A stretch of 64,000 nucleotides of DNA from Candidatus Woesearchaeota archaeon (GCA_016214025.1 JACRPH010000003.1:1814-65813), one strand, 5' to 3'; positions 16,527 through 43,339 are shown, numbered from the stretch's first letter. Translations and numbers: made by a program. The notes: a model not told the origin generated them from the letters alone.

Positions 16527-16750
16527 ATGAAAAAATATCCCGTGAATTGAAAAAAATTGTACTTTGGAGATTAGACACAATTCCCCCTAACTTTAAATTA
16601 TCTATCGGTAATGAGGGCACTTTTACCAAAGAAGAATTGAGACAACACGTAGAAAAAGAGGATCAAATTGGGGTGACTTTTGCTAAAATGCAGCTTAATT
16701 TTATGAAAGCATTAGCCAGCGGTGAATTCTCCAAGACATTATCTGAATGA
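16523..16750 (+). CDS. Small protein (75 aa), second gene of the cassette
   Basis: ATGA overlaps at both ends (16523-16526 and 16747-16750). No motif recognised. Confidence 0.5.
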   Translation: MNEKISRELKKIVLWRLDTIPPNFKLSIGNEGTFTKEELRQHVEKEDQIGVTFAKMQLNFMKALASGEFSKTLSE

Positions 16751-18905: not shown

Positions 18906-21350
18906 ATGTCAAAAAAGAGGTCGTTCGGCAGCTCAGGACAGGTAACTATATTCATAATTCTAGGGATATTGCTGCTGTTTGGCTTCCTTTCTATGATGTA
19001 CTTAACCGGCTCCGTTAAACAGGAGCAACTTAAAACTGAACAAACCAAATTTACTTCTAATTTATTTCAGAAAGAAGCCATGCGCCTGTACGTGGAAGAT
19101 TGTTTGGAAGATGAATTAGAAAATGGCTTGATTCTACTGGGAAAACAAGGCCGAATCTGGGAAGATCAGCCGGGCGGAACTAAACCTTATGCAGAAGGAA
19201 AAAACGGAGCCAGTTATGATGGGGAACGGGTATTATTCGGCATCAGTAGAGAAGAATATTCTTCATTTCAGAATGCCTATCCCTGTAACAATGATACTGC
19301 CCCTACTGAATTTTGCCGATATAAGCACCCTGACCTTAAAGTGGGCTTTGGCATTTTAGAACTAAAAGAAAGCACCCTAGAAGAAGACTTACAGCGATAC
19401 TTGATTAACCGCACGTTATGGTGTGTAGAAAACTTTACTAAGAGTAACATCTCTCAAAATGCCGAATTAGTGACTAAAAAGCTAGACTTAACTGTAGATA
19501 TCATCCAAGAAGGAATCAATGTTAAGGTTTACTTTCCGTTAAAGCTTAAAATAGGAAAAGAAGAATTTTCTCAATTAACTCAGTTTGATTTCTTTTATCC
19601 GTCGAGATTTAATGATCTGCTCGACGCTGCCGTAGCTCGCCCCTTGAAAGAGGATTACACTAAAGTAAACTTCAATTATACCCAAAGTTTCTTAGAAAGC
19701 CCCGAATTTGGGTATTATGACACTTATCTTTCATTAGGAGTCCAGATGGAAAAGCAGGAAACATCTAACGGAGATAATTTCTTTAAGTTCACCCCGGTAA
19801 TGTTTAGCGTATTAAATAAGCCGGTGGATTATTCATTCCATATTGCCCGGCAGAATCGGCCTCCAGCGCTGGATTATGTAGAAAGACTCGCCTGTCCTTC
19901 GTTAGGCTATGATTATTTAGTTATCGAAGGAGATAATTCATCATTGGGAGAAATAAACATCACCTTGAATGCTTTGGATCCAGATGAAGACGGTTTTAAT
20001 TATAGCTTCAATGAAGTTCTTGCTTCTTGGATTGGAGCAGCGGGTGGTAAGAAGACGATAAATAACTCTAATTTATATGTATCTAAAGATTTGCTTCAAC
20101 AAAATTGGTACAACTTTACTGCCAACGCCACTGACGAACACAACTTAAGCGACTGGCAGACGGTAAGAGTGCTGGTAGATAGACCACTTACAGTAAATGT
20201 AACTTTCTCCTCACCATATGCCGATATTGAAGGGATGAGCGGCGGCGTGGCAATTGTATCCCCTGAAGACCCTGCTTTCATTAACTTAATTCTTCCAAAT
20301 GATTCATTAGTTCCAAATGCTTCACCGCAGATAACTTTGAATTATTCCAATGACGACGGAATTACTGCCTTTGGATACGAAATTCCTTCAGTAGAGATTC
20401 CCATAAGTCCTGATGGCTGTTACAGTTTCCCGCTCAAAACCGGTAAAAAGTGCAAATTAGCTTCTTATGGTGCACCAACAGAAATAATTGGCTTGTTTCC
20501 TGACAATACTTTTGGCTTAGGGCAAACCAATGGTTTACTTAACTTATCTTATTCCATGGACTATTGCAGCAACCTGAACGCGTCTAAGTCGGTAGAAATT
20601 CCAGTATATGTTGCACCCTGTGTTCCACATAAGAATCCAGAACGGCCGTTTGCGTACCCTTATCACATCTACAAATTCTTGGATTATAACTTTACCTTGG
20701 GAAATGGGACTTTTGACCAAAAAGAAACCGGAACTACCACTGGATTCAATCCTTTGGAAGCTACTCACTCTTGTTGTATTGGTGTTCCTGAAAATCCCGG
20801 CGGCTGGAAGCTGGTCGACGAGAATGATCTTAAGAATCCCTGTTTTGTTAATCCGGCTCCGGGCTGTTATGGTGTAATTGCCGATTACTTAAAATTAGAA
20901 AAGAATTATGGTGGTTATGTTCTGGAAAAAGAAATGCAGCTGTGCGACGGAACCAGAGGAAATGTGTGTGAAGGCGGCCCAGCCGGGGAATTATGGGACG
21001 ATAAGCTTACTTGCGGGGAAAACAATAAGAATAAATGCAATGGTATCTCCTCCAAATGTCAAGGGCTTCCCGCGTTTGGATTAATTCCGGACAAAGGCTG
21101 GTGTTATGGCAAGATGGGATGTGAGAAACTTTGTCCATCATCTCAAAGCGTAGTTAGCCTTGATAAATATAACAATGCGCCAACAGAAATGATAAATGCC
21201 CGAGCAAAAAATAACCAACTCCTGAGCGACGGAAAAGAGCTGGGTTTCGTCTGCGGCTGCTCAGGCCATGATGGAAGTACCTGCGACTCCAACTTTAATG
21301 GTTTTTTCAGTGGGAAATGTGACGGTGGAAAATGCAAAGGAGATAATTAA
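18906..21350 (+). CDS. Large Cys-rich secreted protein with a pilin-like N-terminus (814 aa)
   Basis: N-terminus 'MSKKRSFGSSGQVTIFIILGILLLFGF'. The C-terminal third is Cys-rich ('CCIGVPENPGGWKLV', 'CGCSGHDGSTCDSNFNGFFSGKCDGGKCKG'). Confidence 0.6.
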   Translation: MSKKRSFGSSGQVTIFIILGILLLFGFLSMMYLTGSVKQEQLKTEQTKFTSNLFQKEAMRLYVEDCLEDELENGLILLGKQGRIWEDQPGGTKPYAEGKNGASYDGERVLFGISREEYSSFQNAYPCNNDTAPTEFCRYKHPDLKVGFGILELKESTLEEDLQRYLINRTLWCVENFTKSNISQNAELVTKKLDLTVDIIQEGINVKVYFPLKLKIGKEEFSQLTQFDFFYPSRFNDLLDAAVARPLKEDYTKVNFNYTQSFLESPEFGYYDTYLSLGVQMEKQETSNGDNFFKFTPVMFSVLNKPVDYSFHIARQNRPPALDYVERLACPSLGYDYLVIEGDNSSLGEINITLNALDPDEDGFNYSFNEVLASWIGAAGGKKTINNSNLYVSKDLLQQNWYNFTANATDEHNLSDWQTVRVLVDRPLTVNVTFSSPYADIEGMSGGVAIVSPEDPAFINLILPNDSLVPNASPQITLNYSNDDGITAFGYEIPSVEIPISPDGCYSFPLKTGKKCKLASYGAPTEIIGLFPDNTFGLGQTNGLLNLSYSMDYCSNLNASKSVEIPVYVAPCVPHKNPERPFAYPYHIYKFLDYNFTLGNGTFDQKETGTTTGFNPLEATHSCCIGVPENPGGWKLVDENDLKNPCFVNPAPGCYGVIADYLKLEKNYGGYVLEKEMQLCDGTRGNVCEGGPAGELWDDKLTCGENNKNKCNGISSKCQGLPAFGLIPDKGWCYGKMGCEKLCPSSQSVVSLDKYNNAPTEMINARAKNNQLLSDGKELGFVCGCSGHDGSTCDSNFNGFFSGKCDGGKCKGDN

Positions 21351-22451
21351 ATGAAACACAACATACTCTTTTGGGTTGTACCTTTCGCAGTATTAATCTC
21401 TGCTTCTTTTGCTTTAGCCGAAGATGGCTGCTTCACCTACGCTGATAGCCCATTATATTGTAAAACCATTTCCATTGAAGAAGCGCAGGATGAATGCTCA
21501 TTGTATGAAGATTGTACTCTCGAAGCTGCTTTTTCCTCCGGAACTTGTGATGATACTTCTGCTTTCCCTTCCTGCCAGAAAGTCCTGTGCAAAAGCTCTT
21601 GCAGCGAAACTTTCGTAGAAGAATGTTCTGCCGGAATAATTCCCGAGGAGGAGCAGGCAGAATGGTGCTCTCCCGGCTGCTGCAAGTTTTCTTATTCTGA
21701 AGGCGATTTTTGTGAATACAAACCCTCCAAATGGCTGTGCGAAGTAGAAGCCAAGAATAAAAATATCGTTCAATTTAATTTTGGAATTTCTGATGAGGAA
21801 CAATGTGCTGATTCATGTGCAACTGCAACCTCACCCTTAGAGAAAGAAAATGTTCCCATCAAGCCCAGCACCAAAAATATTTCCCAAACCAATCTTACCG
21901 ATACTAACGAAACTGAAACTAACTCTTCCGGATTAGGCTGGTTTTTAGTATTCCTGTTAGTGGTAATCGTAGGAGGAATAATATTTTATTACCGCAAGCT
22001 CATTTCTTTCAACCTAAGTAAATTATCCCCAGAACCAGAAGAGGAATTAGAAGACGTTACGCGCCCACCGAAACCTGAAGACGATGACAGCTTCTCCAAA
22101 ACGTTGTGGAAATATTTGATAAAAGAAAGGCTGAAGCCGCTTACAGCAAAGTATGGGCGCAAAGTTAAAATAAAGCAACGCGAGGAATTCTTGATGGAAA
22201 CCGGCTTAACCGTGGAAAAGGCTCCGGAAACTATCTTTACTAAGTTGAAGAAATTATCCCGGAAGAATAAGCACGCCGAACCTGCTCCTAAACCCAAGCC
22301 AGAAAAGAAAGCATTAGAGCGCTTAAATGAGCTTACTGCCAAGCCCTCAGCAAAGTCAGGTTCTGCTGAAATTCCATTAACTTCTACTAAGCCTAGTTCT
22401 AAGCGCAACGAAGCTCTGGAAGAGTTAAAAAAAGTGGCCAAAGGAAAATAA
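21351..22451 (+). CDS. Type I membrane protein: signal peptide, Cys-rich head, TM, K/E-rich tail (366 aa)
   Basis: 'FWVVPFAVLISASFALA' signal; head includes 'EWCSPGCCKF'; TM 'GWFLVFLLVVIVGGIIFYY'; tail ends 'LEELKKVAKGK'. The head and tail are paralogous to those of the giant protein. Confidence 0.65.
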   Translation: MKHNILFWVVPFAVLISASFALAEDGCFTYADSPLYCKTISIEEAQDECSLYEDCTLEAAFSSGTCDDTSAFPSCQKVLCKSSCSETFVEECSAGIIPEEEQAEWCSPGCCKFSYSEGDFCEYKPSKWLCEVEAKNKNIVQFNFGISDEEQCADSCATATSPLEKENVPIKPSTKNISQTNLTDTNETETNSSGLGWFLVFLLVVIVGGIIFYYRKLISFNLSKLSPEPEEELEDVTRPPKPEDDDSFSKTLWKYLIKERLKPLTAKYGRKVKIKQREEFLMETGLTVEKAPETIFTKLKKLSRKNKHAEPAPKPKPEKKALERLNELTAKPSAKSGSAEIPLTSTKPSSKRNEALEELKKVAKGK

Positions 22452-22510
22452 CTTCTTGATCCAACATACCTCAAATCCCTTTCTCTTTCTCCTGAAACGG
22501 GCTCGGAACA

Positions 22511-22518
22511 TTTATAAA
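22511..22518 (+). promoter_or_regulatory. TATA-like box 28 nt upstream of the giant-protein start
   Basis: 'catttataaacg'. ATG at 22546. Confidence 0.4.
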
Positions 22519-22545
22519 CGATTAAGGTTTTATTCGGGGTATCAG

Positions 22546-25500
22546 ATGACAAGTAAAAAAAGAGGGATGTTTTACGTAGTTTTAGCTTTATGTTTGATAC
22601 TTTTAGCTCCGTTAGCGTTCAACCCCGTTAATGCTGCCGTAAACGGCTGTTATACTTATTCCAAAGCCAGCGAGGATTTATATTGTGCATCAGGCGGAAT
22701 TTTAGAAGATGAAGCTAAAGCGGATTGTGTAAAATATCCTGATTGTAAAATTGACCAACACTTTATTCCTGGCTCTGACTGCAGCGATATCGATGATTGC
22801 AAAGAAATAACCTGTAAAGTTGACTGCAAAACCCACACTTGGGGCAAATGCCAGCAGTTAGCCGGAGCAGGAGTCTCAGATTTAGAAGTGCCTGCCGAGG
22901 AGTATGAGGCGTGGTGTAATCCGGGCTGCTGCAAATTCACCCCCACTAAAGGAGCTAAAGATTTCTGCCAGTTTAATTTGAACCAATATCAATGCACTAA
23001 GCAGGCAGCGTTAAATGGAGTTACTGATTCACAAAAAATCATTTTTGATAATTCTGCTGGGATGAACTTAAACCTCTGTGCCCAGACCATTTGTAAGCTT
23101 CAAATTACTCCCTCTGACTTAACCATTTTTGTTAAAGATAGCAATGAGAAAGGGATTGAAGGAGTTAAAATAGTACTTCAGGGAGAAGCTCAAGAAAAAA
23201 CCACTGATTCTTCGGGAAAAGTAACTTTTTCTAAACTCACACCCAAAACTTATCTGGTAAAAGCAACTAAAGACGGATTTCTTTCTGCTTCTGCTACCAT
23301 TCCGTTAGCTTCAAACCTTTCTAAAACGTATAATTTTACTTTAGTTACCGCCGAGGGAACGGCTTCAGTTTCCGGAACTATAACTGACACCAATGGAGCA
23401 GCACTAAATGGAGCAACCCTGTCTTGGACGGGCGTAACTGAAGGAAAAACTACTGCTGATGCTTCCGGTAAGTTTTCTGCCAGTACTCTTCCCCCCGGAA
23501 CCTATACTTTCACTGCCAGTATCATCGGCTACAAGCCCAGTATTCAGGCTGCCACTTTGGAAGCAAAAGTCCCTGCCACGTTAGACTTTAAATTAGAAAA
23601 AAGCGCCTTGCAGGGCATAACCGGAACCACTTATTTAGATTCCAATGATAATACTGAGCTTGATGCCGGAGACCAACCTATCGCCGGAGCTAAGATTTAT
23701 GTTGATGGAATATTCAAAGGCCTTTCTATCTATCCCGAAGGCAAATTTGAGATTAGTGTGGAAGTAAAAGCTACTGAAGGTAAAGAAACCCATAAGCTTT
23801 CAGCTGTATATCAGGACTACAACGCTGAAATAGAAGTAGAATTAACTAAAGGAGAAACCCTTTCACAGAATTTGCTATTAGTAAGGTATCTGGGCGAATG
23901 CAGTAAAGGTGGCGTTAATGAGCAGAAAGATGTAGAAGCGTTTTATGCCGTTCCCGTTCCTGGAAAGAAAGAAGTGCAGTTAAACTGGAACAAGCCTTGT
24001 CCGGAAGTGATAGGATATGGAATAGAGAAATGTAAAGCAGAAGAGTGTAGCTCTATTCCTCTTCCCCCCACGGCTAACGCTTATACTGACACTGAAGTAG
24101 AATGGGAAGCGGCGTACAGCTATAAAATTTGGGCCGTCTATGATTATGGCTTGTCCAAAAATATGGTCGAACAAGCTATCACTTTAGGCAGTGAATTATG
24201 TGCTGGGCGTTATCACGAGCTAACTGGATGGGAAACGTTCTGCTTTGGCAAAACTCCGGATGAGCGCAAAAAAGTGTGGACCTGCGACGATGGAAATAAA
24301 TTAATTGGCTCCAAAGACTGCGGCGAGATGGACGGCACCGGAGAAAATTATTATTGCGCTAGAGTAGCTGAAGGCGTAGCTGAATGCAAAAATACGGGCT
24401 CGTGCGGATTGTTTGGAAATCCGTTTGGATTATATTATAATTCAGAAATGTGTTATGGCAGTATGGTCGCTGAAGGAGCAAAGCCCGCTAATTACTGTTA
24501 TTATGAATACACCAATACCGTAGTAGAGCAATGCAAATCCTGCACCCAAGTTAATAGCTGTTTTGATTATCAAAGCCAAGATGCATGCGAAGTAAACAGC
24601 TGCCTCAGTAAAGATTGTACCTGGCTCAATGCTGCCCAAAACGAAGAGCCCATCATAGATTACGGTTTAATTCTTCCCGGATTAGTCACGCCCGAAACCG
24701 GAGCAGGCTATTGTGTGGAGAAAGATTATACTAAAGATGATAAATGCTCGTTATGCAGCCCCTCGGCCAGCTTATTTGACAATTATTTTTGCACGGCTCA
24801 AATATGCACCAATTTAGGGAACTGTTTTGCTTCGGCGGGATTAAAATACTGCCAATCCTGCGGCGAAGCCCCCACTAAAGACACTAATTGTTATAGCTAC
24901 GGAAGCAAATTGGAATGCGTAGGCAGCGATGAAGGTGAAGAAGCCGGAATTTACAAAGATCCGTCAGAGCACATAACTGCTTCTAAAGATAAATGCTCGT
25001 GGAAGAGATGCCGCTGGGAAGGGAACTCGGGAACGGATGGCAAGTGCATCAAAGACGGGAATGTAGATGAAGTGGATGACTGCGAAGCCTTTGCAGATGT
25101 GGGCAGCGCTAATACCTGCCGTATGGACAACTCACCACCTAAAACCGTAGTTGAGCCCGCTGGAGTTAACGTTGTTTCTTTGGCTCATCCCAATATCACT
25201 TTCTTTGGGAATGATAAATATCATAAGTACGCGAATCAGCAGAGCGATATGGGTGCACTGGGATATTGTTTAACTTCAGGAGACCCCACTGCATCAGATA
25301 GTTGTGTAAGAGATAATGAAGGGAATTCTGCGTTCATTGAAGTCCCCTATGCCGGAAAGCTCCCCGAAGAATATCTTACCGTAGATTTAATCAATTCAAA
25401 ATATCTTGCTGGGCAAAGCATTGAAGGAGACACCTATAAATTAAAATTTTATTCTCAGGACAAATATTTCAATCAGGAAGACCTTCAAGAAACGTTTGTG

Positions 25501-28500
25501 TTTGTAGATAATGTAGTTCCCGAATTTGAAATCAAAGATACTCAAGAAACTACTGCCGATATTACTGATTTAACTATAACTTTGGAAGGCATCGACGAGC
25601 CGTTAGAATGTAAATTTGATTTGATTTCAATAGTCCCTCAAGGAAGCGTACAAACTCAAACCGTAGCCCGAGAAACCGAATTAAAAGAAGTTAAGTTTGA
25701 AGGGTTAACTGGAGTAAAATATGATTTAAACGTTACTTGTAAAGACGACCATGATAACACCAACACTAAAAATGCCACTTACGTATTCGACTTAGAGCAA
25801 AACATTGATGTTATCGAGCCGGCGCTTAAAGGAGTAATTGCTGCTACCGATATCGTGTTTAAGATTCATACTGATGTAGGCGCTATCTGTGCGTTATACT
25901 TAGCTGATACTAATGAAAAGATAACTGATTTTATTCCAAATGAAGAAGGCAAAGAGCATTATACCAACACTGTAGTTGGATTTACTGAAGGAAAATATAC
26001 TGGAACCCATAAAATTGTGTGCACAGATCTTCTTAATGGCGAGGTAATGGAAGATTACTTTGACTTTACGGTTGATTTCACTCCGCCTACCACCCAGATA
26101 ACCCTAAAAGAAGGAAAGAGAGAAGTAAAACCGATTGATTACGGCTGGGAGGAATATTTCATCAGCTCCGTAAATATTGACTTTGAATGTACTGCTGACG
26201 GCTTTGGATGCAGTAAGACTTTTTATTGCCTCGGAGTAGGATGCGAATTAATCGGAAGCCCCGAATATAAAGAATACACTGGAACGGTTGCGTTAAACGA
26301 AACCAGCCAGATATGTTATTATTCCACCGATGCGGGAGATAGCATGGTATTCTCTCCGCTGTGTGGAAAAATTGTAGTAGATGGTTATGGAATAACTTTA
26401 GAGCAGCCACCCCCGTATTTTTACCAAGGAGAAGTATGGGGAATCAGCAACTTGCCGGTATTTAACTGGGGATTCTTTACTAAAGTACCCACTAAAGAAT
26501 GCGGGTTTGACTTTACTTCTGGAATTGATTATATGAGCCTGCCTGACCATAAAAAGAAACCGCTCAACAGCGAACAGAAATACTTATTTGAAAATTTCCC
26601 CCAAAGCGTATTAACTTCTTACGCTGAAGATGGCGGCACCAAAGCCGTTTATGTTAAATGCCTGAACCATGAAGATGAAATCGGTCCCGAGAAAAAGATG
26701 AATTTAGAGTATGACCCCACTCCTCCGGAAATTACGGAAGCCTATGCTAAGCCCAATTTAGTACTAGAAGAAATTTTCACCAACCTGTTTACAGTAACTG
26801 ATGATAAGACGTTATGCAAATTCAGCGATAATTCTGAAGGTGCCGGAAGCAATGAATATTATACTATGGAATTCCCTTTCCCCGGCTTAGAAAGTAATAC
26901 TTTAAATATTACTCATCAAGCCGAGTTTGGAATTTCTGACGTGGGCGATGATGGCATGAAAGATTATTCTTTATTTGTGCAGTGCCAGAATGGAGCAGAG
27001 AACTTATCCAATGTCAAAGATATAAATTTCTCAGTCGATTATACTGCGGTCGGCTATATTATTGCTAGCTCACTTGCCCCCGGCGGGTATGTAACTATTC
27101 CTGACGTGACTTTAAAAGCAGAGACCAGCAAAACTGGCTTGTGCGAGTTCAGAGAGAATGTTAATCAATCATACACCCAGATGGACGGTGCCGGAGGAAA
27201 GCTCCACGGTTCTGTGTTAAGTAAACTTCCCGAAGGCGCACATAAATTTTTAGTTCGGTGTGCTATGGGGGATCATGTTGCGGAAGCAGCGATAGATTTC
27301 ATTATAGATTTAACTCCCCCCACCATCAAAGAAATTAATGACGGCAACCGCACCTGCGGCCAGGACAAGCTAAGTGTATCTGTATATACTGATGATGCCA
27401 ATGTAACCGGATATTATTATGAATTGTATGATGCCGGGGAAGATAAAAATTATATCGTGCCTGCTCCAGCGGTTAATACATCTAAATCACTGCTCAATGC
27501 TTCTAAGCTTCCCGTGCCTAAAGCTCCGATTCCTAAAATTAATGCATCTTTATCAGCACCCAAGAGCGGAGCAACTCTAGTTGGGAATGGAACCCTGCCT
27601 TCCAGCTTTCCATTAGAAATACCGGCTCCTGTCGGAATTAATATTTTAGGAGCTAATGCTTCCGGAGGCAATGCTTCGGGGGTTAATGCATCAAGTGTTA
27701 ATGCTTCCGGGTTTATTGTTGGTCACAAGTATGTGGTTAAGGTAAAAGCGCAAGACGCGGCTGGAAATTGGGGCGGGATGAAAGAAAGCGACGGCGTTAC
27801 TGCCACTTACAAAAATTACTCGGCTTGCATTGCGGATATAACTGCACCTAAAGTGACTATGTTATTAAACGATAATTGTACTCTGAACCAGCCAGTGGTA
27901 GAATTACATTGCGAAGATGAAAATGGATGCACTGGATTCAAATATGGGAAGTCTTCCACTTCTGCCTGTAATGCTACGTTAAGCTACACTGGAACTGCTA
28001 TTCCGGTAGACAAGAAAAGCTGGTTATGTTATTATGTAGCTGATACTAAAGGCCAGAATATTTCCGAAACCAAGCCGGTGTTAATCGTTGATGATGACGG
28101 AGATGGAATTGTAAATAAATGCGATCAGTGCCTGCTCACTCCTGCTGGAAAAGTAGCGGATAAAAGCGGCTGCGCCTCCAATGACACTTTCACTGGACAG
28201 AATAAAACTGTTACCGATATAGATAATGACGGCTTGCCTGATGATTGGGAAAAGAAATATGATGCCGAAAACTGCGAATTTGATTACACTAAGAAAGATT
28301 CTGACGGAGACACTATTGCTGATTCAATGGAAGATTATGATGGAGACGGGTTGAGTAATCATAAGGAATATACTTTAGGTACTAACCCCTGCATCAAAGA
28401 GCTGATTGGGCCCAAGATAGAGCCGGGAAAATTGGGCTCAGAACAGAATAAGACTAATGTGACTAAACTTCCTTCTGAAGAGGAAACTTTGCTTCCAGTG

Positions 28501-29037
28501 GAAGAAGGGAATTTGGTGGCATGGATATTGCTAATTATTGGTTTGCTATTAACCTTTGGAGGAAGCGGATATTTAATTTATTATTACAAATACGCTCCTG
28601 CCCCAACTAGGGCGGTTTCTGGACCGGTTACATCTACTTCTAGAATCACACCTAGTGCAGGTGAAGGTGTAGTTAATGCGTTGCGTTCTAAACTAACTTT
28701 GCTCAGGCAAGGTCGGGATGATCGGCTGAAGCAAAGATCACGGGAAGATGTATTTGGCAAGTTTACTTCTAAATCTACTGAAATCCCTCACGTTGGTCCA
28801 GTATTATCCAGCAAAGCTTCTCCCATAGAAAAAGTACAGCAAGCGGCGCAGAAATACGTCGAGCATAAAGAAGAAATAAAATCCGGATTAAAGGCGGGGG
28901 AGAAAGGAATCTTTTCCAAGTTAGAGGGAATTGCTAAGCAGGGCAAAGCTCCAGAGATAACTACTACTGAAGCTAAAGATATTTTCTCCCAATTGAAAGA
29001 ACTGAGCAAGAAAAGGAAAGAGGTGCATGGAAAATGA
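22546..29037 (+). CDS. Giant modular surface protein (2163 aa from ATG 22546), adhesin-like
   Basis: Signal 'MFYVVLALCLILLAPLAFNPVNA' and a Cys-rich head ('AWCNPGCCKF'). Two CarboxypepD_reg-like modules ('GVKIVLQGE...SGKVTFSKLTPKTYLVKATKDGF'). TSP3-like Ca-binding repeats ('DDDGDGIVNKCDQC', 'DIDNDGLPDDWE', 'DYDGDGLSNHKEYTLGTNP'). C-terminal TM 'WILLIIGLLLTFGGSGYLIYYY' plus a basic tail. Confidence 0.75.
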   Translation: MTSKKRGMFYVVLALCLILLAPLAFNPVNAAVNGCYTYSKASEDLYCASGGILEDEAKADCVKYPDCKIDQHFIPGSDCSDIDDCKEITCKVDCKTHTWGKCQQLAGAGVSDLEVPAEEYEAWCNPGCCKFTPTKGAKDFCQFNLNQYQCTKQAALNGVTDSQKIIFDNSAGMNLNLCAQTICKLQITPSDLTIFVKDSNEKGIEGVKIVLQGEAQEKTTDSSGKVTFSKLTPKTYLVKATKDGFLSASATIPLASNLSKTYNFTLVTAEGTASVSGTITDTNGAALNGATLSWTGVTEGKTTADASGKFSASTLPPGTYTFTASIIGYKPSIQAATLEAKVPATLDFKLEKSALQGITGTTYLDSNDNTELDAGDQPIAGAKIYVDGIFKGLSIYPEGKFEISVEVKATEGKETHKLSAVYQDYNAEIEVELTKGETLSQNLLLVRYLGECSKGGVNEQKDVEAFYAVPVPGKKEVQLNWNKPCPEVIGYGIEKCKAEECSSIPLPPTANAYTDTEVEWEAAYSYKIWAVYDYGLSKNMVEQAITLGSELCAGRYHELTGWETFCFGKTPDERKKVWTCDDGNKLIGSKDCGEMDGTGENYYCARVAEGVAECKNTGSCGLFGNPFGLYYNSEMCYGSMVAEGAKPANYCYYEYTNTVVEQCKSCTQVNSCFDYQSQDACEVNSCLSKDCTWLNAAQNEEPIIDYGLILPGLVTPETGAGYCVEKDYTKDDKCSLCSPSASLFDNYFCTAQICTNLGNCFASAGLKYCQSCGEAPTKDTNCYSYGSKLECVGSDEGEEAGIYKDPSEHITASKDKCSWKRCRWEGNSGTDGKCIKDGNVDEVDDCEAFADVGSANTCRMDNSPPKTVVEPAGVNVVSLAHPNITFFGNDKYHKYANQQSDMGALGYCLTSGDPTASDSCVRDNEGNSAFIEVPYAGKLPEEYLTVDLINSKYLAGQSIEGDTYKLKFYSQDKYFNQEDLQETFVFVDNVVPEFEIKDTQETTADITDLTITLEGIDEPLECKFDLISIVPQGSVQTQTVARETELKEVKFEGLTGVKYDLNVTCKDDHDNTNTKNATYVFDLEQNIDVIEPALKGVIAATDIVFKIHTDVGAICALYLADTNEKITDFIPNEEGKEHYTNTVVGFTEGKYTGTHKIVCTDLLNGEVMEDYFDFTVDFTPPTTQITLKEGKREVKPIDYGWEEYFISSVNIDFECTADGFGCSKTFYCLGVGCELIGSPEYKEYTGTVALNETSQICYYSTDAGDSMVFSPLCGKIVVDGYGITLEQPPPYFYQGEVWGISNLPVFNWGFFTKVPTKECGFDFTSGIDYMSLPDHKKKPLNSEQKYLFENFPQSVLTSYAEDGGTKAVYVKCLNHEDEIGPEKKMNLEYDPTPPEITEAYAKPNLVLEEIFTNLFTVTDDKTLCKFSDNSEGAGSNEYYTMEFPFPGLESNTLNITHQAEFGISDVGDDGMKDYSLFVQCQNGAENLSNVKDINFSVDYTAVGYIIASSLAPGGYVTIPDVTLKAETSKTGLCEFRENVNQSYTQMDGAGGKLHGSVLSKLPEGAHKFLVRCAMGDHVAEAAIDFIIDLTPPTIKEINDGNRTCGQDKLSVSVYTDDANVTGYYYELYDAGEDKNYIVPAPAVNTSKSLLNASKLPVPKAPIPKINASLSAPKSGATLVGNGTLPSSFPLEIPAPVGINILGANASGGNASGVNASSVNASGFIVGHKYVVKVKAQDAAGNWGGMKESDGVTATYKNYSACIADITAPKVTMLLNDNCTLNQPVVELHCEDENGCTGFKYGKSSTSACNATLSYTGTAIPVDKKSWLCYYVADTKGQNISETKPVLIVDDDGDGIVNKCDQCLLTPAGKVADKSGCASNDTFTGQNKTVTDIDNDGLPDDWEKKYDAENCEFDYTKKDSDGDTIADSMEDYDGDGLSNHKEYTLGTNPCIKELIGPKIEPGKLGSEQNKTNVTKLPSEEETLLPVEEGNLVAWILLIIGLLLTFGGSGYLIYYYKYAPAPTRAVSGPVTSTSRITPSAGEGVVNALRSKLTLLRQGRDDRLKQRSREDVFGKFTSKSTEIPHVGPVLSSKASPIEKVQQAAQKYVEHKEEIKSGLKAGEKGIFSKLEGIAKQGKAPEITTTEAKDIFSQLKELSKKRKEVHGK

Positions 29038-30856: not shown

Positions 30857-31441
30857 ATGAACAAAAAAGCCATGGGCGTAGGACAAGTGTTCATCTATAT
30901 CGTAGCTGCCATCTCGTTTGCATTGATAATGATTTTCGGATACAAAGCCATTAACAGTTTCTTACAGAGCGGAGAGCAGGTGCAGTTAGTACAGTTTAAA
31001 ACGGATTTGGAAAGCTCCATTAAGAAAGTTTATACTGAATATGGCTCAGTACGGGTGGAAAAGTATCGTATTCCGGGAAACTTTGAACAGATATGTTTGG
31101 TGAATATGGAATATCCAGCGACTCCAGAGGAAATTGATGATCTTTGTAAAGAGAATGTTTACGCTTGCAAAGTGTGGGAAGATGCAGTTGCTGCTCAGAA
31201 ATTATCTGAAGCTGACCCAGCCAACTATCCCAAAGACGGCTACGACAGTGTAGATGAGAATGTATTTCTAACACCAATAACTGAAGGCTTGACTCAACTT
31301 AAAGTGTATCGAATTAGTATCGATCAAGATGCCGATGAAGTAGAAGAGGGTTTCTTGTGCGAACCCATCAAAAAAGGCTCATTCTCATTAGTTCTAGAAG
31401 GGAAAGGCGATCACACACAAATTTATCAAAAAACCAATTGA
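30857..31441 (+). CDS. Class III signal peptide (type IV pilin-like) protein
   Basis: N-terminus 'MNKKAMGVGQVFIYIVAAISFALIMIFGY'. Confidence 0.55.
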   Translation: MNKKAMGVGQVFIYIVAAISFALIMIFGYKAINSFLQSGEQVQLVQFKTDLESSIKKVYTEYGSVRVEKYRIPGNFEQICLVNMEYPATPEEIDDLCKENVYACKVWEDAVAAQKLSEADPANYPKDGYDSVDENVFLTPITEGLTQLKVYRISIDQDADEVEEGFLCEPIKKGSFSLVLEGKGDHTQIYQKTN

Positions 31442-31443
31442 AC

Positions 31444-32595
31444 ATGATTTCATCCAAACGCGCCCAGCTTGAAGTTACATTTAATTGGGTGTATGTGCTG
31501 ATCGCAGGAGCAGTAATCCTGTTATTCTTCGCTGGAATTGTAGTAAAACAAAAAGCTGCTTCCGAAGATAATTTAAGCCGGATGGCAATGAACATCATGG
31601 ATAAGATATTTGCCGGAGCCCGAGCGGCTGAAAAAACTAAAGATTTTGTGGATATAAGCGGATTAGCAGATTATACCTTTTACTTTGACTGTGATAATGA
31701 AGTCAGCACTTACGGGCTGAAAGGCTATGCTAATCCCAAAGAAGACGAAGTGCACGCTATTTTTGCACCATTAGAACTACAAGGGACACGGATGATTCTA
31801 TGGAGTTTACCTTACAAACTTCCTTACAAAACAATGGATTTTTTGTTTATTACTACGGATAAAACCAAGTATTTCTTCGTTGGGCAGGATGAGTTTGTAG
31901 AAGAATTCTTAAACGCTACTCAAGATAATACCGATAAGAGGAAAAGCATCAGCGCCGAAGCGGTTATTGATTTAGAAGATATTACTCCCGGAAAGACGTT
32001 CCAAATAAGAATTGTGGATGTAGAAGGGAAAATTCAACCTAAAGCCCTTTTACCTCCGCCGCTTTTGGATAAATTAAAAGGCTACGGCGACAATAAAGTA
32101 ACTGCAGTTTCTTTTACCGGAACCAATCAGGTTAATTTCTTCCAGAAAGAAGATGATCATTGGAAGCAGCTGAATTCCAATCCGGTTCAAATTGTCTCGC
32201 TGGGAGGAGAGCGTGATGCCGCTAAATATGCAGCTGTTTTTGCGGGAAATGACAAAGTGTACGAATGCAACATGAAGAAAGCATTTAGGCGATTAGAATT
32301 AGTTAATGAAGTTTATGGGGGGGTGGAGATAGTTAGCTTAAAGCCAGGTGGAAAACTAGGCGAAATTGCTGCTTATTACCAAGCTCATCCTGAATTGGGA
32401 TTAACCGGCCAATGCCAGAGTTATTTGAGTGAAGCTGAGGAAAATGTAATGGTAAGTATGCAGATGCATCAGTTAAAGACAAAAATGTGTAAATTAGAAT
32501 ACACCAAATGCGTCGAATTAATTGATTCCGCCGATAAACTAAAAAAAGCTAATACCAACTTGGCTGAAAAAGGAGATTGTATCCCACTATACTAA
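31444..32595 (+). CDS. Class III signal peptide (pilin-like) protein, 383 aa
   Basis: N-terminus from ATG 31444 is 'MISSKRAQLEVTFNWVYVLIAGAVILLFFAGIV'. The ORF-track start at 31357 overlaps the upstream gene and is unlikely. Confidence 0.55.
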   Translation: MISSKRAQLEVTFNWVYVLIAGAVILLFFAGIVVKQKAASEDNLSRMAMNIMDKIFAGARAAEKTKDFVDISGLADYTFYFDCDNEVSTYGLKGYANPKEDEVHAIFAPLELQGTRMILWSLPYKLPYKTMDFLFITTDKTKYFFVGQDEFVEEFLNATQDNTDKRKSISAEAVIDLEDITPGKTFQIRIVDVEGKIQPKALLPPPLLDKLKGYGDNKVTAVSFTGTNQVNFFQKEDDHWKQLNSNPVQIVSLGGERDAAKYAAVFAGNDKVYECNMKKAFRRLELVNEVYGGVEIVSLKPGGKLGEIAAYYQAHPELGLTGQCQSYLSEAEENVMVSMQMHQLKTKMCKLEYTKCVELIDSADKLKKANTNLAEKGDCIPLY

Positions 32596-32596
32596 A

Positions 32597-33124
32597 ATGG
32601 CACTTCGTTCCAAAAAAGCACAAATGCACATCACCGAAACTATTGGAGTGCTATTCATCTTCTTTATCTTGGTAGCATTTGGGTTGATATTTTATTACAA
32701 GTACACTGAGCAGGCGATAGAACAAGAGCACTACCAGCAGATTGACGACAGGGCAGTTAAACTGGCATTAGAGGTATTTACGCTTCCAGAATTAGCCTGT
32801 ACTCGAGGAGACGCAGAGTTAGAAGATTATTGTGTGGATATGGCTAAAGTGCGGCATCTTAATGAGACATTTGATATTCATGTGAAGGATTACTATTTCA
32901 AGCTGTTTGGATATGCGAAGATAAGAGTAGTGCAATTATATCCTCCTGATGGACAAAATTATACTTTGTATGATAAAAAAATGCCACTTAATGAAACTTC
33001 CACACCCGATTTAGGAGTCACTTGGTTTGTGGTAGCATTAAAAGATGAAGTTACTGATATGGAGAAAACTCCGTACAGTTTTGGATATATTGAAGTGGGT
33101 GTATATTCCCTGCCGTGGGAATGA
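32597..33124 (+). CDS. Class III signal peptide (pilin-like) protein
   Basis: N-terminus 'MALRSKKAQMHITETIGVLFIFFILVAFGLIF'. Confidence 0.55.
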   Translation: MALRSKKAQMHITETIGVLFIFFILVAFGLIFYYKYTEQAIEQEHYQQIDDRAVKLALEVFTLPELACTRGDAELEDYCVDMAKVRHLNETFDIHVKDYYFKLFGYAKIRVVQLYPPDGQNYTLYDKKMPLNETSTPDLGVTWFVVALKDEVTDMEKTPYSFGYIEVGVYSLPWE

Positions 33125-33133
33125 AAAAGAGAA

Positions 33134-33688
33134 ATGAACAAAAAAGCACAGATGGAAATGATTGGGATTGTGGTAATTGTAATTCTCGTAACGTTAGGAA
33201 TGCTGTTCATGGCGCAGTTTGCATTTAAAGAAGACAAAACTAAGAAAGTGTTTACGGCGCGAGGATTGGCTGCGAGCACGTTAGGTGCATTGTTTAAGAC
33301 TACGGTAACCGATCCTGGTTGTGTGCAAGAATTTGGCGCAGCGGCTTTGCCACAAATTGGGGAGGAGTTGTTAGAAGATTGCGCCTTGAACTATGAAACT
33401 AAAGACGAGCCAAATGGATATTCTTTGTATACTTGTGGTGGGATGCATACGTGTGAGTTTGTGGAAGGAAGCGCTACTTCTTTATTAGGAGACACTTTAG
33501 GCAAATGGGGCAAGAAGTATCATTTTACAGCTAAATTGCTGGTTCCGGGCGGGAAAACAAATTTTATTAATCTGACTGAAGTTAAGAACAGTGGCTGCCC
33601 CAAAACTCAGGGAGACAGAGACTGCTCCCAGCAGCCTTTATCTACCGAAGCTGGGCAGGTGCTGGCAGAATTGTGCATTTGCGGGTGA
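33134..33688 (+). CDS. Class III signal peptide (pilin-like) protein, Cys-containing
   Basis: N-terminus 'MNKKAQMEMIGIVVIVILVTLGMLF'. Its last 26+ nt are duplicated at 38273-38298. Confidence 0.55.
   Translation: MNKKAQMEMIGIVVIVILVTLGMLFMAQFAFKEDKTKKVFTARGLAASTLGALFKTTVTDPGCVQEFGAAALPQIGEELLEDCALNYETKDEPNGYSLYTCGGMHTCEFVEGSATSLLGDTLGKWGKKYHFTAKLLVPGGKTNFINLTEVKNSGCPKTQGDRDCSQQPLSTEAGQVLAELCICG
33656..33681 (+). repeat. Left copy of the 26-bp direct repeat flanking the radical-SAM island
   Basis: 'caggtgctggcagaattgtgcatttg' is identical to 38273-38298. Weaker similarity extends about 20 nt upstream. Confidence 0.85.
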
Positions 33689-38392: not shown

Positions 38393-38734
38393 ATGGGTTC
38401 TAAGAAAGGGATGGAGATGTCCATAAGCGTAATTATCGTAGCCGTACTAGCTTTAGTTATATTAGTAGTGTTGCTGGCTATTTTTATGGGGAAAATAACT
38501 GGGTTTGAGAAAGGAGTAAGCAAAGAGGCCCAGACCGAATTAATTACGATGAAGATAACCTATGGTAATTGCCGTCCTTTGGCTAGTGCAGAAACCGCCT
38601 TTACCACCGATTTAAGCAAAGCGGAAACCGATGATGCCAAAGAATTTATCAAAGCCAATTTTAAAGACGCTATTAGCTCGTGCAAGACCAACACTGAAAA
38701 AGCCAACTGTGCCGGGAATTGCGTGTGGGGTTAA
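38393..38734 (+). CDS. Small pilin-like protein with a Cys-containing C-terminus (113 aa)
   Basis: N-terminus 'MGSKKGMEMSISVIIVAVLALVILVVLLAIF'. C-terminus 'SSCKTNTEKANCAGNCVWG'. TATA-like 'tttatata' at 38320-38327. Confidence 0.55.
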   Translation: MGSKKGMEMSISVIIVAVLALVILVVLLAIFMGKITGFEKGVSKEAQTELITMKITYGNCRPLASAETAFTTDLSKAETDDAKEFIKANFKDAISSCKTNTEKANCAGNCVWG

Positions 38735-38763
38735 GCAGGATAAGCTAAATGAGGCGAATTAAC

Positions 38764-39072
38764 ATGAATAAAAAAGCTGACGCCAATATGTGGTGGATAA
38801 TCATTGGAGCAGTGATAGCTTTAGTGGTGCTGATAATCCTGATGGTGATATTTACCACGAAGACCGGAAAATTGGAAGGGGGGTTGTCTGAATGCGGGGG
38901 TAAGAGTGGTGTGTGTGTGTCCGGGGGCATCTGTCCAAAGTCTACGTTAGAATCATCAGCATTTACTTGTAGCAGTTCTTCTGCTATCTGCTGTATTGGC
39001 TCGCCCAAGAAAAGCCCGTGTAATTCTGTTGATGAATATGAAGGCGAAGGCGGTTATTGCTTTGGAAAGTGA
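38764..39072 (+). CDS. Small pilin-like Cys-rich protein (102 aa; alternative start 38749)
   Basis: N-terminus 'MNKKADANMWWIIIGAVIALVVLIILMVIF'. C-terminus has 9 Cys ('CGGKSGVCVSGGICP...AICCIG'). Confidence 0.55.
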   Translation: MNKKADANMWWIIIGAVIALVVLIILMVIFTTKTGKLEGGLSECGGKSGVCVSGGICPKSTLESSAFTCSSSSAICCIGSPKKSPCNSVDEYEGEGGYCFGK

Positions 39073-39074
39073 GA

Positions 39075-39206
39075 ATGCTTAACAAAAAAGGCGTGGATTG
39101 GAGCAGTCCGGAAACACTGGTGACGATTTTGCTAATCGTTTTATTGGCTTTAATTTTCTTTTTTGTATTCATTCGCGGGAAAATAGGAGGAATACTTAAA
39201 ATATGA
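39075..39206 (+). CDS. Micro-ORF (43 aa) with a pilin-like N-terminus; not in the supplied ORF track
   Basis: Hand translation 'MLNKKGVDWSSPETLVTILLIVLLALIFFFVFIRGKIGGILKI*'. Its TGA overlaps the next ATG as ATGA (39203-39206). Confidence 0.45.
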   Translation: MLNKKGVDWSSPETLVTILLIVLLALIFFFVFIRGKIGGILKI

Positions 39207-39367
39207 ATAAAAAAGCGGGTTTATGGAAAAGCAAAAAAGGGATGGAAATGTGGATGTTGGTGCTGATGATATTAGCAATTATATTATTATTATTTGTATT
39301 AGGATGGTATTATGGATTGAGTAAAAGCGGTGGAAGTCTGCTGGACAAGGTGAGTAATCTGCTATGA
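39203..39367 (+). CDS. Micro-ORF (54 aa) with a pilin-like N-terminus; not in the supplied ORF track
   Basis: Hand translation 'MNKKAGLWKSKKGMEMWMLVLMILAIILLLFVLGWYYGLSKSGGSLLDKVSNLL*'. ATGA overlap with the next gene at 39364-39367. Confidence 0.45.
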   Translation: MNKKAGLWKSKKGMEMWMLVLMILAIILLLFVLGWYYGLSKSGGSLLDKVSNLL

Positions 39368-40137: not shown

Positions 40138-40141
40138 TAAC

Positions 40142-41128: not shown

Positions 41129-41158
41129 ATAATAAAAAATAAAAAGGTGAAACATAAC

Positions 41159-41467: not shown

Positions 41468-41493
41468 AAATAAAATAATTAAAAAGATGCCCC

Positions 41494-42557: not shown

Positions 42558-42562
42558 TAAAA

Positions 42563-43338: not shown

Positions 43339-43339
43339 C

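What the first reader, a model, noticed from the sequence alone, without database searches (positions are those of the whole stretch)
21351..29037. A 366-aa and a 2163-aa membrane protein share the same Cys-rich head and the same cytoplasmic tail
Hand alignment shows a ~130-aa N-terminal module conserved between the two adjacent genes. The 366-aa protein reads 'GCFTYADSPLYC...EDC...CQKVLCKSSC...IPEEEQAEWCSPGCCKF...DFCEY'. The giant protein reads 'GCYTYSKASEDLYC...PDC...CKEITCKVDC...VPAEEYEAWCNPGCCKF...DFCQF'.

Both proteins end the same way. Each has a single TM followed by YY(Y)(R/K), then a long K/E-rich tail with repeated 'IF(T/S)(K/Q)L(K/E)' motifs, finishing '...KKVAKGK*' or '...KEVHGK*'.

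Between head and TM, the giant protein inserts CarboxypepD_reg-like modules, long Cys-rich regions and TSP3-like Ca-binding repeats.

Inference: this is a family of type I receptors or adhesins in which a common head and a common cytoplasmic docking tail flank a variable stalk. A conserved tail implies an intracellular partner.
Basis: partly seen in the sequence, partly recalled or inferred. Interest (0 to 1): 0.7.

Follow-up and report, generated by a model that had tools for sequence, protein, structure and literature searches.

The report
Paired giant and mini archaeal surface proteins
Two neighbouring genes of a tiny symbiotic-type archaeon (Woesearchaeota) encode a 2163-residue and a 366-residue membrane protein that share a new 16-cysteine outer domain and a new 150-residue inner tail, and they sit in a conserved cluster of pilin-like genes that probably builds the cell's attachment apparatus.

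Summary
The heads are homologous: BLASTP E 2e-19, profile-profile E 9e-34, and all 16 Cys are aligned and at least 98% conserved in 168 heads. The tails are also homologous, but this shows only at profile level: hhalign Prob 96%, E 3e-9, score 57 against at most 24 for 100 column shuffles.

Both proteins have one signal peptide and one transmembrane helix. The tail is about 150 aa, Cys-free and net +17. The ectodomain is Cys-rich and acidic. This fits a type I topology with the tail inside the cell.

The "variable stalk family" reading fails. An exhaustive search of 1.84 billion proteins found only two fixed architectures, 300-440 aa and 1950-2290 aa, each conserved as orthologues in Woesearchaeota/Nanoarchaeota genome bins.

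The pair lies in a syntenic operon, B-C-D-F1-F4. It continues into G1-G10, so at least 15 genes carry prepilin-like N-termini. No assembly ATPase is nearby.

The small gene is missing in one subclade. In two genomes it is reduced to TM plus tail, so the tail works without the head.

Neither module has a relative in Pfam, NCBIfam, PDB sequences or Foldseek-PDB.

Best reading: a long-reach and short-reach pair of surface adhesins or receptors belonging to a pilin-based apparatus, coupled to a common cytoplasmic partner. Function is inferred, not shown.

The parts
18906..21350 (+). Gene B: 814-aa Cys-rich protein with a prepilin-like N-terminus (KKRSFG/SSGQVTIFIILG...). It is always immediately upstream of the pair.
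   Evidence: Orthologues in about 30 loci sit in the same position. The N-terminal [KR][GA]Q + hydrophobic motif is conserved. No Pfam or NCBIfam hit. No similarity to the giant. Its stop codon abuts the ATG of the small gene.
21351..21419 (+). Small protein C: Sec-type signal peptide (MKHNILFWVVPFAVLISASFALA|ED).
   Evidence: Hydrophobic segment. An AxA-type site sits just before the first head Cys in all orthologues. There is no [KR][GA] prepilin motif: 3 of 24 orthologues match.
21420..21830 (+). Small protein C: head, a 16-Cys domain (residues 24-160).
   Evidence: BLASTP to the giant head gives E 2e-19. hhalign gives E 9e-34. AF2 pLDDT is about 97 over residues 30-160, a mixed alpha/beta fold. 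Foldseek-PDB finds no match with E below 1. No Pfam, NCBIfam or PDB sequence relative.
21831..21929 (+). Small protein C: 33-aa S/T/N-rich linker with four N-x-S/T sequons.
   Evidence: Read from the sequence. AF2 pLDDT is about 50, so it is probably flexible.
21930..21998 (+). Small protein C: single TM helix ending in FYYRK.
   Evidence: Hydropathy peak of 2.71 at residue 194. AF2 helix 194-222.
21999..22451 (+). Small protein C: 150-aa basic, Cys-free cytoplasmic tail. It holds a basic helix (RLKPLTAKYGRKVKIKQREEF) and then three amphipathic motifs (IFTKLKKLS, ALERLNELT, ALEELKKVA).
   Evidence: hhalign to giant tails gives Prob 96%, E 2.6e-9, and passes the shuffle control. AF2 helices are 248-283, 295-307, 321-330 and 352-364. 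Composition statistics are and hydrophobic moments.
22546..22638 (+). Giant protein D: signal peptide (MTSKKRG-MFYVVLALCLILLA-PLAFNPVNAA). The KKRG is invariant.
   Evidence: Orthologue starts. The AxA-like c-region argues for Sec. KKRG plus a hydrophobic run fits a relaxed class-III pattern in 20 of 24 orthologues. The signal type is unresolved.
22639..23100 (+). Giant protein D: head, with the same 16-Cys framework as C (residues 32-185).
   Evidence: In a neighbour-joining tree the D heads and C heads form two separate clades, apart from one long-branch C sequence (L034_C) that falls outside both. This points to one ancient duplication.
23113..23601 (+). Giant protein D: two CarboxypepD_reg (prealbumin-like beta-sandwich) domains. 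A weak third follows at about residues 375-445.
   Evidence: Pfam PF13620 at E 9e-32 with 2 stretches. PF13715 at E 0.0088 for the third.
23602..28086 (+). Giant protein D: about 1500-aa stalk with no strong family match. It has a Cys-rich stretch at about residues 545-880, then modules that begin with D-x-(T/S)-x-P (residues 861, 1177, 1390, 1588, 1764), and an N/S/A/G-rich sequon tract at about 1690-1715.
   Evidence: Only a weak Big_3_3 hit, E 4e-4. The family holds 74-82 Cys per ectodomain. Reading the modules as Ig-like is my inference, not a result.
28087..28425 (+). Giant protein D: Asp-rich Ca-binding-type repeats (DDDGDG, DIDNDG, DYDGDG) next to the membrane.
   Evidence: Pfam TSP3_bac PF18884 at E 2.7e-6, 27.5 bits against a 25-bit cut-off, 2 stretches.
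28513..28587 (+). Giant protein D: single TM helix ending in the invariant GYLIYYY.
   Evidence: Hydropathy. Invariant G, Y, L and Y columns. AF2 helix with pLDDT 94-97.
28588..29037 (+). Giant protein D: 149-aa cytoplasmic tail. It runs from a flexible linker to a basic helix, then the IPHV loop, then KYVEHKEEIKSGL, then IFSKLEGIAKQ and IFSQLKELSKKRK.
   Evidence: Homology to the C tail. In the 180-residue TM-plus-tail segment that was modelled, AF2 gives mean pLDDT 84, and 81-94 per ten-residue block from segment residue 91 to the end, with helices at segment residues 58-87, 100-105, 110-123, 125-131, 137-148 and 157-179. Many columns are invariant or near-invariant. No Pfam, PDB or Foldseek relative.
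30857..33688 (+). Genes F1-F4 (194, 383, 175 and 184 aa): four prepilin-like proteins that always follow the giant gene.
   Evidence: Same order in about 25 loci. Conserved K[GA]|Q + hydrophobic N-termini, with Q at +1 in F2-F4. No Pfam pilin hit.
38393..44497 (+). Genes G1-G10: ten more small proteins with prepilin-like N-termini. In other genomes they follow F4 directly and end at the RPA gene.
   Evidence: N-terminal sequences. Gene-for-gene match to L038 and L039. Only G1 has a faint Pilin_N hit, E 0.046.

Best explanation
C and D are ancient paralogues. Both are type I membrane proteins of Woesearchaeota-type DPANN archaea (DPANN is the superphylum of very small, mostly host-dependent archaea).

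Both are exported by a signal peptide. Both display the same novel 16-Cys head outside the cell. Both are held by one TM helix, and both carry the same novel helical tail of about 150 aa in the cytoplasm.

D places its head at the end of a stalk of about 1800 aa, built from CarboxypepD_reg and other probable beta-sandwich modules, a Cys-rich stretch and Ca-binding TSP3-type repeats. C holds the same head about 35 residues from the membrane.

They are co-transcribed with at least 15 prepilin-like proteins in a cluster conserved across the lineage. I therefore read them as the membrane-anchored adhesin or receptor pair of a type-IV-filament-related surface apparatus, most plausibly one that contacts other cells or surfaces. 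On this reading the heads bind one common extracellular ligand, or each other, at long and short range. The tails dock both proteins to one common cytoplasmic partner, or to each other.

Shown: homology of both modules, predicted topology, the two fixed architectures, synteny, and retention of the tail without the head.

Inferred: adhesion, the ligand, the partner, and any signalling.
For: Head and tail homology.

Topology: one signal and one TM in all 48 + 8 sequences. Compartment signature: Cys 4.1-8.5 per 100 aa outside against 0.01-0.02 in the tail; charge -16/-145 outside against +17 in the tail.

Confident AF2 models of head and tail helices.

Only two architectures among the 150 best hits from 1.84 billion proteins.

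Synteny: B-C-D-F1-F4 keeps the same order in about 30 species-level genomes and extends to A0...G10-RPA.

Prepilin-like N-termini, with Q at +1, are conserved in B and F1-F4 and are seen in G1-G10.

Operon-like packing: the B stop abuts the C start, and the gap between C and D is 95 nt.

TM-plus-tail-only derivatives of C lie between B and D in L038/L033 and in L028. The tail therefore has a function that does not need the head.

A separate S_layer_C protein at 9533-11932 makes it less likely that D is the main S-layer protein.

The literature reports large adhesin-like and C-terminally anchored Cys-rich proteins as recurrent accessories of archaeal type IV filament loci (PMC4858521; bioRxiv 10.64898/2026.04.22.720090).
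Against: There is no functional data of any kind, and the organisms are uncultured.

No assembly ATPase, platform protein or prepilin peptidase lies in the window or in any 10-kb flank.

The pilin assignment of the neighbours rests on N-terminal motifs only. Pfam pilin models do not reach threshold.

C is absent from its position in one D subclade and a few other loci. A strict C-D partnership therefore cannot be essential.

No known adhesion domain (lectin, vWA, cadherin, integrin) was detected.

Only 150 of the 292 profile hits could be inspected.

No model coordinates were available, so neither a disulfide map nor the packing of the tail helices could be examined.
Confidence: 0.45

Rival explanations
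1. Envelope scaffold. D is a stalk-type S-layer anchor or spacer, working like SlaB or tetrabrachion, that sets the width of the pseudo-periplasm. C is a short version of it. The tails simply fix both proteins to a sub-membrane layer. On this reading the pilin-like neighbours need these proteins in order to cross the envelope, not for adhesion.
For: D has a signal peptide, a very long beta-rich stalk, Ca-binding repeats next to the membrane and a C-terminal TM. D is universal in the lineage and its length is tightly fixed at 2000-2180 aa. S-layer-like C-terminally anchored Cys-rich proteins are described in archaeal T4P loci (PMC4858521). The 2026 preprint suggests such proteins may prime the cell wall for filament passage. 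There is a weak partial NCBIfam hit to an anammox S-layer glycoprotein, confined to the CarboxypepD_reg region.
Against: The window encodes a separate protein with an S_layer_C domain. From my own knowledge, not tested here, known S-layer anchors have very short cytoplasmic tails, whereas this tail is 150 aa, conserved and predicted helical. This reading does not explain why the same N-terminal head would be kept both at the far end of D and next to the membrane in C.
Confidence: 0.2
2. Machine subunits. C and D are bitopic parts of the filament assembly machine. They would work like GspL/GspM or PilN/PilO but with inverted topology. Their tails would bind the assembly ATPase or platform, and their ectodomains would guide or cap the pilin fibre.
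For: Invariant co-location with at least 15 prepilin-like genes. The cytoplasmic domain is conserved. Tail-only derivatives are retained, which fits a cytoplasmic role being the essential one.
Against: No ATPase or platform gene is linked to the cluster. A 1950-aa ectodomain is far larger than any alignment subunit I know of (my own knowledge). There is no sequence or fold relation to GspL/M or PilN/O.
Confidence: 0.15
3. No shared partner. The common tail is only inherited baggage from the duplication. It would be a basic, amphipathic, membrane-hugging segment that fixes topology or retains the protein, with no specific docking function. The pair would have no joint mechanism.
For: The tail is lysine-rich (23-25% K+R) with short amphipathic helices, hydrophobic moment 0.44-0.56. 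It has no detectable relatives. The small tail has diverged so far from the giant tail that pairwise BLAST fails.
Against: After an ancient duplication the tails keep the same length (150 and 149 aa) and collinear motifs. The giant tail has many invariant non-basic positions (F, E, L, P, G, Y, I). AF2 confidence is about 90. Headless TM-plus-tail genes are kept between B and D.
Confidence: 0.1

Closest known systems
Large adhesin-like and S-layer-like accessory proteins of archaeal type IV filament loci (Makarova et al. 2016, PMC4858521; bioRxiv 10.64898/2026.04.22.720090)
   Same: They are large secreted proteins encoded among many pilin genes. Some are anchored by a single C-terminal TM and rich in conserved Cys. 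A role in adhesion or envelope passage is proposed from context only.
   Different: Those descriptions mention no conserved cytoplasmic domain and no mini-paralogue that shares both ends. The head and tail here have no family assignment. Sequence relationship to the named arCOGs was not tested. No ATPase or platform gene lies in this cluster.
Epd pilus cluster of Methanococcus maripaludis (archaeal TFF system 1)
   Same: It is a multi-gene cluster with many minor pilins. From my own knowledge, its prepilins are cleaved after [KR]G with Q at +1. The preprint reports system 1 in some DPANN archaea. F2-F4 and B here show K[GA]|Q.
   Different: The Epd locus carries its own peptidase and machinery genes, and none are linked here. 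The Pfam Pilin_N model does not reach threshold on these proteins. No C/D-like pair is described there.
Bacterial minor-pilin plus PilY1 tip complex
   Same: Several minor pilins are encoded with one very large, Ca-binding, non-pilin surface protein thought to mediate adhesion or sensing.
   Different: PilY1 is soluble and pilus-associated, with a beta-propeller, and has no TM or cytoplasmic tail (my own knowledge). No PilY1 or DUF2341 signature is found here.
Stalk-type archaeal S-layer anchors (SlaB, tetrabrachion) - from my own knowledge
   Same: A signal peptide, a long extracellular stalk and a C-terminal TM anchor.
   Different: Those have only a few cytoplasmic residues, whereas here the tail is a conserved 150-aa helical domain. 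No sequence similarity was found, and a separate S_layer_C protein is present in the window.
Eukaryotic type I adhesion receptors (integrins, cadherins) - analogy only
   Same: A type I topology, a large Ca-binding and disulfide-rich ectodomain, and a conserved cytoplasmic tail expected to dock an intracellular partner.
   Different: There is no homology. No partner, heterodimer or signalling has been shown. The organism is an archaeon.

Membership tests
Type I (Nout-Cin) single-pass membrane protein | A cleavable N-terminal signal peptide plus exactly one further TM helix | tested here: met
   Two hydrophobic segments are present in all 8 small and all 48 giant sequences. An AxA-type site lies before the first head Cys. 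This is a prediction only.
Type I (Nout-Cin) single-pass membrane protein | The C-terminal segment is cytoplasmic | tested here: met
   Tails have 0.01-0.02 Cys per 100 aa against 4.1-8.5 outside. Tail net charge is about +17 against -16/-145 outside. The 15-residue flanks of the TM average about -1.3 to -1.7 on the N side and +1.9 to +2.4 on the C side. This is indirect evidence; no experiment exists.
CarboxypepD_reg-domain surface proteins (the GenBank name of the giant) | A Pfam PF13620 match above the gathering score | tested here: met
   109.7 bits against a 32.3-bit cut-off, 2 stretches. This covers only about 8% of the protein and says nothing about head or tail.
Bacterial TSP3-type Ca-binding repeats | A Pfam PF18884 match above the gathering score, or DxDxDG motifs | tested here: met
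   27.5 bits against a 25-bit cut-off. Three DxDxDG motifs lie at residues 1849, 1891 and 1930.
Archaeal type IV pilins / class III signal peptide proteins (neighbours B, F1-F4, G1-G10) | A short basic leader ending in [KR][GA], followed by about 20 hydrophobic residues at the N-terminus | tested here: met
   The motif is conserved across orthologues: 17-23 of 22-23 sequences for F1-F4 and 18 of 28 for B, with Q at +1 in B and F2-F4. The pattern definition was recalled from memory.
Archaeal type IV pilins / class III signal peptide proteins (neighbours B, F1-F4, G1-G10) | A match to curated pilin models (Pfam Pilin_N and similar) | tested here: not met
   Only G1 gives Pilin_N, at E 0.046 and 15 bits against a 25.2-bit cut-off. 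The others give nothing.
Archaeal type IV filament (TFF) system | An assembly ATPase, a platform protein and a prepilin peptidase encoded with or near the pilins | tested here: not met
   None is found in the 64-kb window or in the 10-kb flanks of about 35 loci. Whole genomes could not be searched, so these genes may lie elsewhere.
PGF-CTERM / archaeosortase-anchored surface proteins | A PGF motif, a TM and a few basic residues at the extreme C-terminus | tested here: not met
   The TM has no PGF motif and is followed by 150 aa. There is no NCBIfam hit.
PilY1-like tip adhesins | A PilY1 beta-propeller or DUF2341 domain, and a soluble protein | tested here: not met
   No such Pfam hit even at E up to 5 on segments. 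The protein is TM-anchored.
C-terminally anchored Cys-rich 'S-layer-like' proteins of T4P loci (arCOG05471-type, PMC4858521) | A signal peptide, a single C-terminal TM, conserved Cys, and a gene inside a pilin locus | tested here: met
   All four descriptive features hold.
C-terminally anchored Cys-rich 'S-layer-like' proteins of T4P loci (arCOG05471-type, PMC4858521) | Sequence homology to the arCOG | not tested
   No arCOG library was available.

The most novel reading that the evidence does not exclude
C and D form an archaeal transmembrane coupling device. The extracellular head would engage a host-cell ligand or the pilin fibre. The conserved helical tail would transmit this to, or be driven by, a cytoplasmic machine such as a filament ATPase or the cytoskeleton. 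That would make it an integrin-like, outside-in/inside-out adhesion system that arose independently in DPANN archaea and is central to how Woesearchaeota attach to and exploit hosts.

A sharper variant: D's invariant KKRG leader makes it a prepilin-peptidase substrate. One 2000-aa chain would then be tied both to the pilin fibre, through its N-terminus, and to the cytoplasm, through its C-terminal tail.
Probability: 0.15. Interest if true: 0.85.

Novelty: new variant of a known kind. Interest (0 to 1): 0.55.

Why it matters
Woesearchaeota and their relatives are abundant, uncultured, small-genome archaea thought to depend on other cells. How they attach to partners is unknown.

One groundwater study even states that type IV pilus components are missing from DPANN genomes.

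This locus is a conserved block of about 25-30 kb, a large share of a genome of about 1 Mb. It holds at least 15 prepilin-like genes and up to three giant secreted proteins.

The C/D pair adds something unusual for archaeal surface proteins: a conserved, folded cytoplasmic domain, duplicated onto a long and a short ectodomain that carry the same novel head.

This gives concrete and testable handles: two new domains, a defined pair, and tail-only natural variants. They can be used to study cell-cell contact in DPANN archaea and to ask whether archaea couple surface adhesion to the cell interior.

Tried and rejected
1. Pfam and NCBIfam on the whole proteins, on five giant segments and on both tails. 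Nothing was found for head or tail.

2. The head-plus-tail profile against all PDB sequences. The best E was 0.41, which is chance.

3. Foldseek against PDB with the small-protein model and with the giant TM-plus-tail model. No match had E below 1. Both models include TM or flexible parts, which lowers sensitivity.

4. Similarity of B (814 aa) or A0 to C or D. None was found.

5. Internal repeats in the giant tail by hhalign self-comparison. None was significant.

6. Using the 90-sequence alignment A4 to scan genomes.

7. Apparent third architectures among the hits (P0190, P0197 and proteins of 566-1773 aa). All turned out to be contig-end fragments of giants.

8. Remnants of C in the B-D gaps of loci that lack C. 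None was found, apart from the tail-only genes.

9. Curated pilin models on the first 60-70 residues of ten neighbours. They did not reach threshold.

10. Literature searches for a description of this cluster or pair. None was found in the held library.

11. Reading D as a PGF-CTERM protein or as PilY1-like. Both were rejected on their defining features.

Full report
**Source and gene models.** The window comes from a Candidatus Woesearchaeota (DPANN archaea) genome bin. The 366-aa protein is 100% identical to NCBI HZC30_00435, and the giant is annotated only as a "carboxypeptidase regulatory-like domain-containing protein". The small gene C is 21351-22451. The giant gene D is best started at the ATG 22546, not at the TTG 22456 that opens the ORF, because all orthologues begin M(x)xKKRG. 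That gives 2163 aa ending at 29037.

**The head is shared.**
- BLASTP of C against D gives E 2e-19, 32% identity over 152 residues.
- Profile-profile comparison of 85 small-type and 83 giant-type heads gives Prob 99.9%, E 9e-34 over 138 columns.
- The same 16 Cys columns are at least 98% conserved in both families across 168 heads.
- The head spans C residues 24-160 and D residues 32-185.
- In a neighbour-joining tree the C heads and D heads form two separate clades, apart from one long-branch C sequence (L034_C). The duplication is therefore ancient and single.
- AlphaFold2 (AF2), with a 90-sequence alignment, models the head at pLDDT about 97 as a compact alpha/beta domain.
- Foldseek against PDB finds nothing with E below 1. 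Pfam, NCBIfam and a PDB sequence profile search also find nothing.

**The tail is shared, but only at profile level.**
- Pairwise BLASTP sees just one motif, at E 0.26.
- With 8 small tails against only 4 giant tails, hhalign was marginal: Prob 9.7%, P 0.003.
- With 46 giant tails it gives Prob 96%, E 2.6e-9 over 99-103 collinear columns.
- Shuffling alignment columns 100 times gives scores of 12.5 +/- 2.5 (max 24) against the real 57.4. The reversed alignment scores 19.7. The match is not due to K/E-rich composition.
- The tails are 150 and 149 aa long.
- Both share the same order of elements: a TM ending in aromatic residues (FYYRK / GYLIYYYKY), a flexible linker, a basic helix (xRLxxLxxKxxxKxKxxREexF), and then three amphipathic motifs of the type hydrophobic-F-x-K-L-x-x-hydrophobic-(A/S)-K-K, running to a basic C-terminus.
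- The giant tail additionally has a near-invariant IPH and KYVEHKEEIKPGL. Some small proteins keep a related "VTHMD".
- In the modelled 180-residue TM-plus-tail segment of the giant, AF2 gives mean pLDDT 84, and 81-94 per ten-residue block from segment residue 91 to the end, with six helices after the TM helix.
- No Pfam, PDB or Foldseek relative was found.

**Topology.** All 8 small and 48 giant sequences have one N-terminal hydrophobic signal and one further TM. Across 88 small and 83 giant proteins:
- Ectodomains hold 8.5 and 4.1 Cys per 100 aa, while tails hold 0.02 and 0.01.
- Ectodomain net charge is -16 and -145, while tail net charge is about +17.
- The TM flanks obey the positive-inside rule.

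It remains a prediction.

**Stalk.** Pfam confirms two CarboxypepD_reg domains (E 9e-32), a weak third, a weak Big_3_3 hit, and TSP3_bac above its cut-off next to the membrane. Three DxDxDG motifs are present. About 1500 aa have no family. The number of ectodomain Cys is tightly fixed at 74-82.

**The "variable stalk" reading does not hold.** The giant is a full-length orthologue family: 48 clusters at 37-86% identity, 2000-2180 aa. A head-plus-tail profile searched against 1.84 billion representative proteins returned 292 hits. The 150 listed are either 300-440 aa or 1950-2290 aa, or are contig-end fragments of these. Within the 64-kb window, HMMs of head and tail hit only C and D. One exception was found elsewhere: a 521-aa lipobox-type protein (L037) that carries the C-terminal two-thirds of the head with no TM or tail (E 2e-16). 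It is rare, with 2 clusters in 5.8 billion proteins.

**Context.**
- A scan of GTDB species genomes gave 34 loci, all from bins labelled Woesearchaeota, Nanoarchaeota or "archaeon". Some TPA records are titled "uncultured Methanosarcinales", probably default labels.
- The order B(814 aa)-C-D-F1-F2-F3-F4 is conserved throughout.
- Longer loci show the full block: A0 (a 1650-1865-aa secreted giant with no TM), then B, C, D, F1-F4, G1-G10, then RPA.
- In the window, G1-G10 are at 38393-44497. They are separated from F4 by a 4.7-kb minus-strand insertion. A0 is missing except for a 38-aa remnant.
- B, F1-F4 and G1-G10 all begin with a short basic leader ending in [KR][GA], followed by about 20 hydrophobic residues. 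Q at +1 is seen in B and F2-F4. From my own knowledge, this is the signature of archaeal prepilins of the Epd type.
- Curated pilin models do not reach threshold on these proteins.
- No ATPase, platform or peptidase gene is linked to the cluster.
- Published surveys describe large adhesin-like proteins, and C-terminally anchored Cys-rich proteins, as recurrent members of archaeal type IV filament loci. I found no description of this pair.

**Natural variants.** C is absent between B and D in one tight D subclade (L024, L026, L027, L029-L032) and in L036. In L038/L033 and L028 the position holds a gene of 135-146 aa with only a TM and a tail. hhalign against the small tails gives Prob 89%, E 2e-6, and the tail HMM gives E 7e-6. 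So D is the constant member and C is dispensable or movable. When C decays, the tail is what survives.

**Interpretation.** The anatomy is solid. The function is inferred from anatomy and context. I favour a long-reach and short-reach pair of surface adhesins or receptors that belong to a pilin-based surface apparatus and share a cytoplasmic docking domain (confidence 0.45). The rivals are an S-layer-anchor-like scaffold (0.2), inverted-topology assembly-machine subunits (0.15), and a tail with no specific partner (0.1).

**Unresolved.**
- Whether D's invariant KKRG leader is a Sec n-region or a prepilin-peptidase site.
- Whether the 16 Cys form disulfides or bind metal.
- What the tail binds.

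Noticed in passing
window 29034-30827 (+): A 597-aa protein with a lipobox-like N-terminus (LLTSC) and many repeated Cys-containing units lies between the giant gene and F1. It overlaps the giant's stop codon by 4 nt. It is absent from every other locus examined, so it is a lineage-specific insertion into the operon. It has no Pfam or NCBIfam hit.
   Followed up: partly
window 33694-38178 (-): A 4.7-kb minus-strand block holds two His_Phos_1 genes, two radical SAM genes (one with SPASM) and a GT1 glycosyltransferase. It interrupts the otherwise contiguous pilin supercluster between F4 and G1. In L038 and L039, G1 follows F4 directly.
   Followed up: partly
window 38393-44497 (+): Ten further small genes (G1-G10) have prepilin-like N-termini and match L038 and L039 gene for gene up to the RPA gene (44472-45548). 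A groundwater DPANN study states that type IV pilus components are missing from DPANN genomes. These clusters suggest the pilin side has been overlooked.
   Followed up: partly
window 62349-62462 (-): A 38-aa stretch matches the extreme C-terminus of the upstream secreted giant A0 of other genomes (55% identity, E 8e-8). It has no intact ORF around it, so it is apparently a remnant. A0 is otherwise absent from the window.
   Followed up: partly
L038 9529-9936 and L028 5808-6245: Genes of 135 and 146 aa lie between B and D and consist only of an N-terminal TM and a C-type tail. They are headless derivatives of the small protein.
   Followed up: yes
L037 9548-11110: A 521-aa lipobox-type protein carries the C-terminal two-thirds of the head (40% identity to giant residues 88-176). 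It has no TM or tail and lies far from any cluster gene. Only two clusters of it are known.
   Followed up: yes
window 22546-22638 (+): The giant's leader has an invariant KKRG directly before the hydrophobic stretch, which resembles a prepilin cleavage site. It also keeps an AxA-type signal-peptidase-I site. The small paralogue has a plain Sec signal.
   Followed up: partly
window 47324-47504 (+): An Rfam RT-16 RNA (RF03019) match scores 51 bits, just above the 50-bit gathering score.
   Followed up: no
window 7745-17400 (+): An island holds two Schlafen AlbA_2 + HATPase_c_4 proteins, a Bro-N protein and a RhuM-family protein, so it looks mobile or defence-related. It also holds a 799-aa protein with an S_layer_C domain (9533-11932), the likely true S-layer protein. 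A DprA gene lies at 5859-6773.
   Followed up: no
L004, L008, L012-L014, L018, L020, L024, L025, L027-L030, L032, L035, L037: The GenBank titles say 'uncultured Methanosarcinales archaeon'. All but L037 carry genes of this Woesearchaeota-type cluster, and L037 carries only the partial-head protein. The organism labels look like defaults of the co-assembly project rather than real taxonomy.
   Followed up: no
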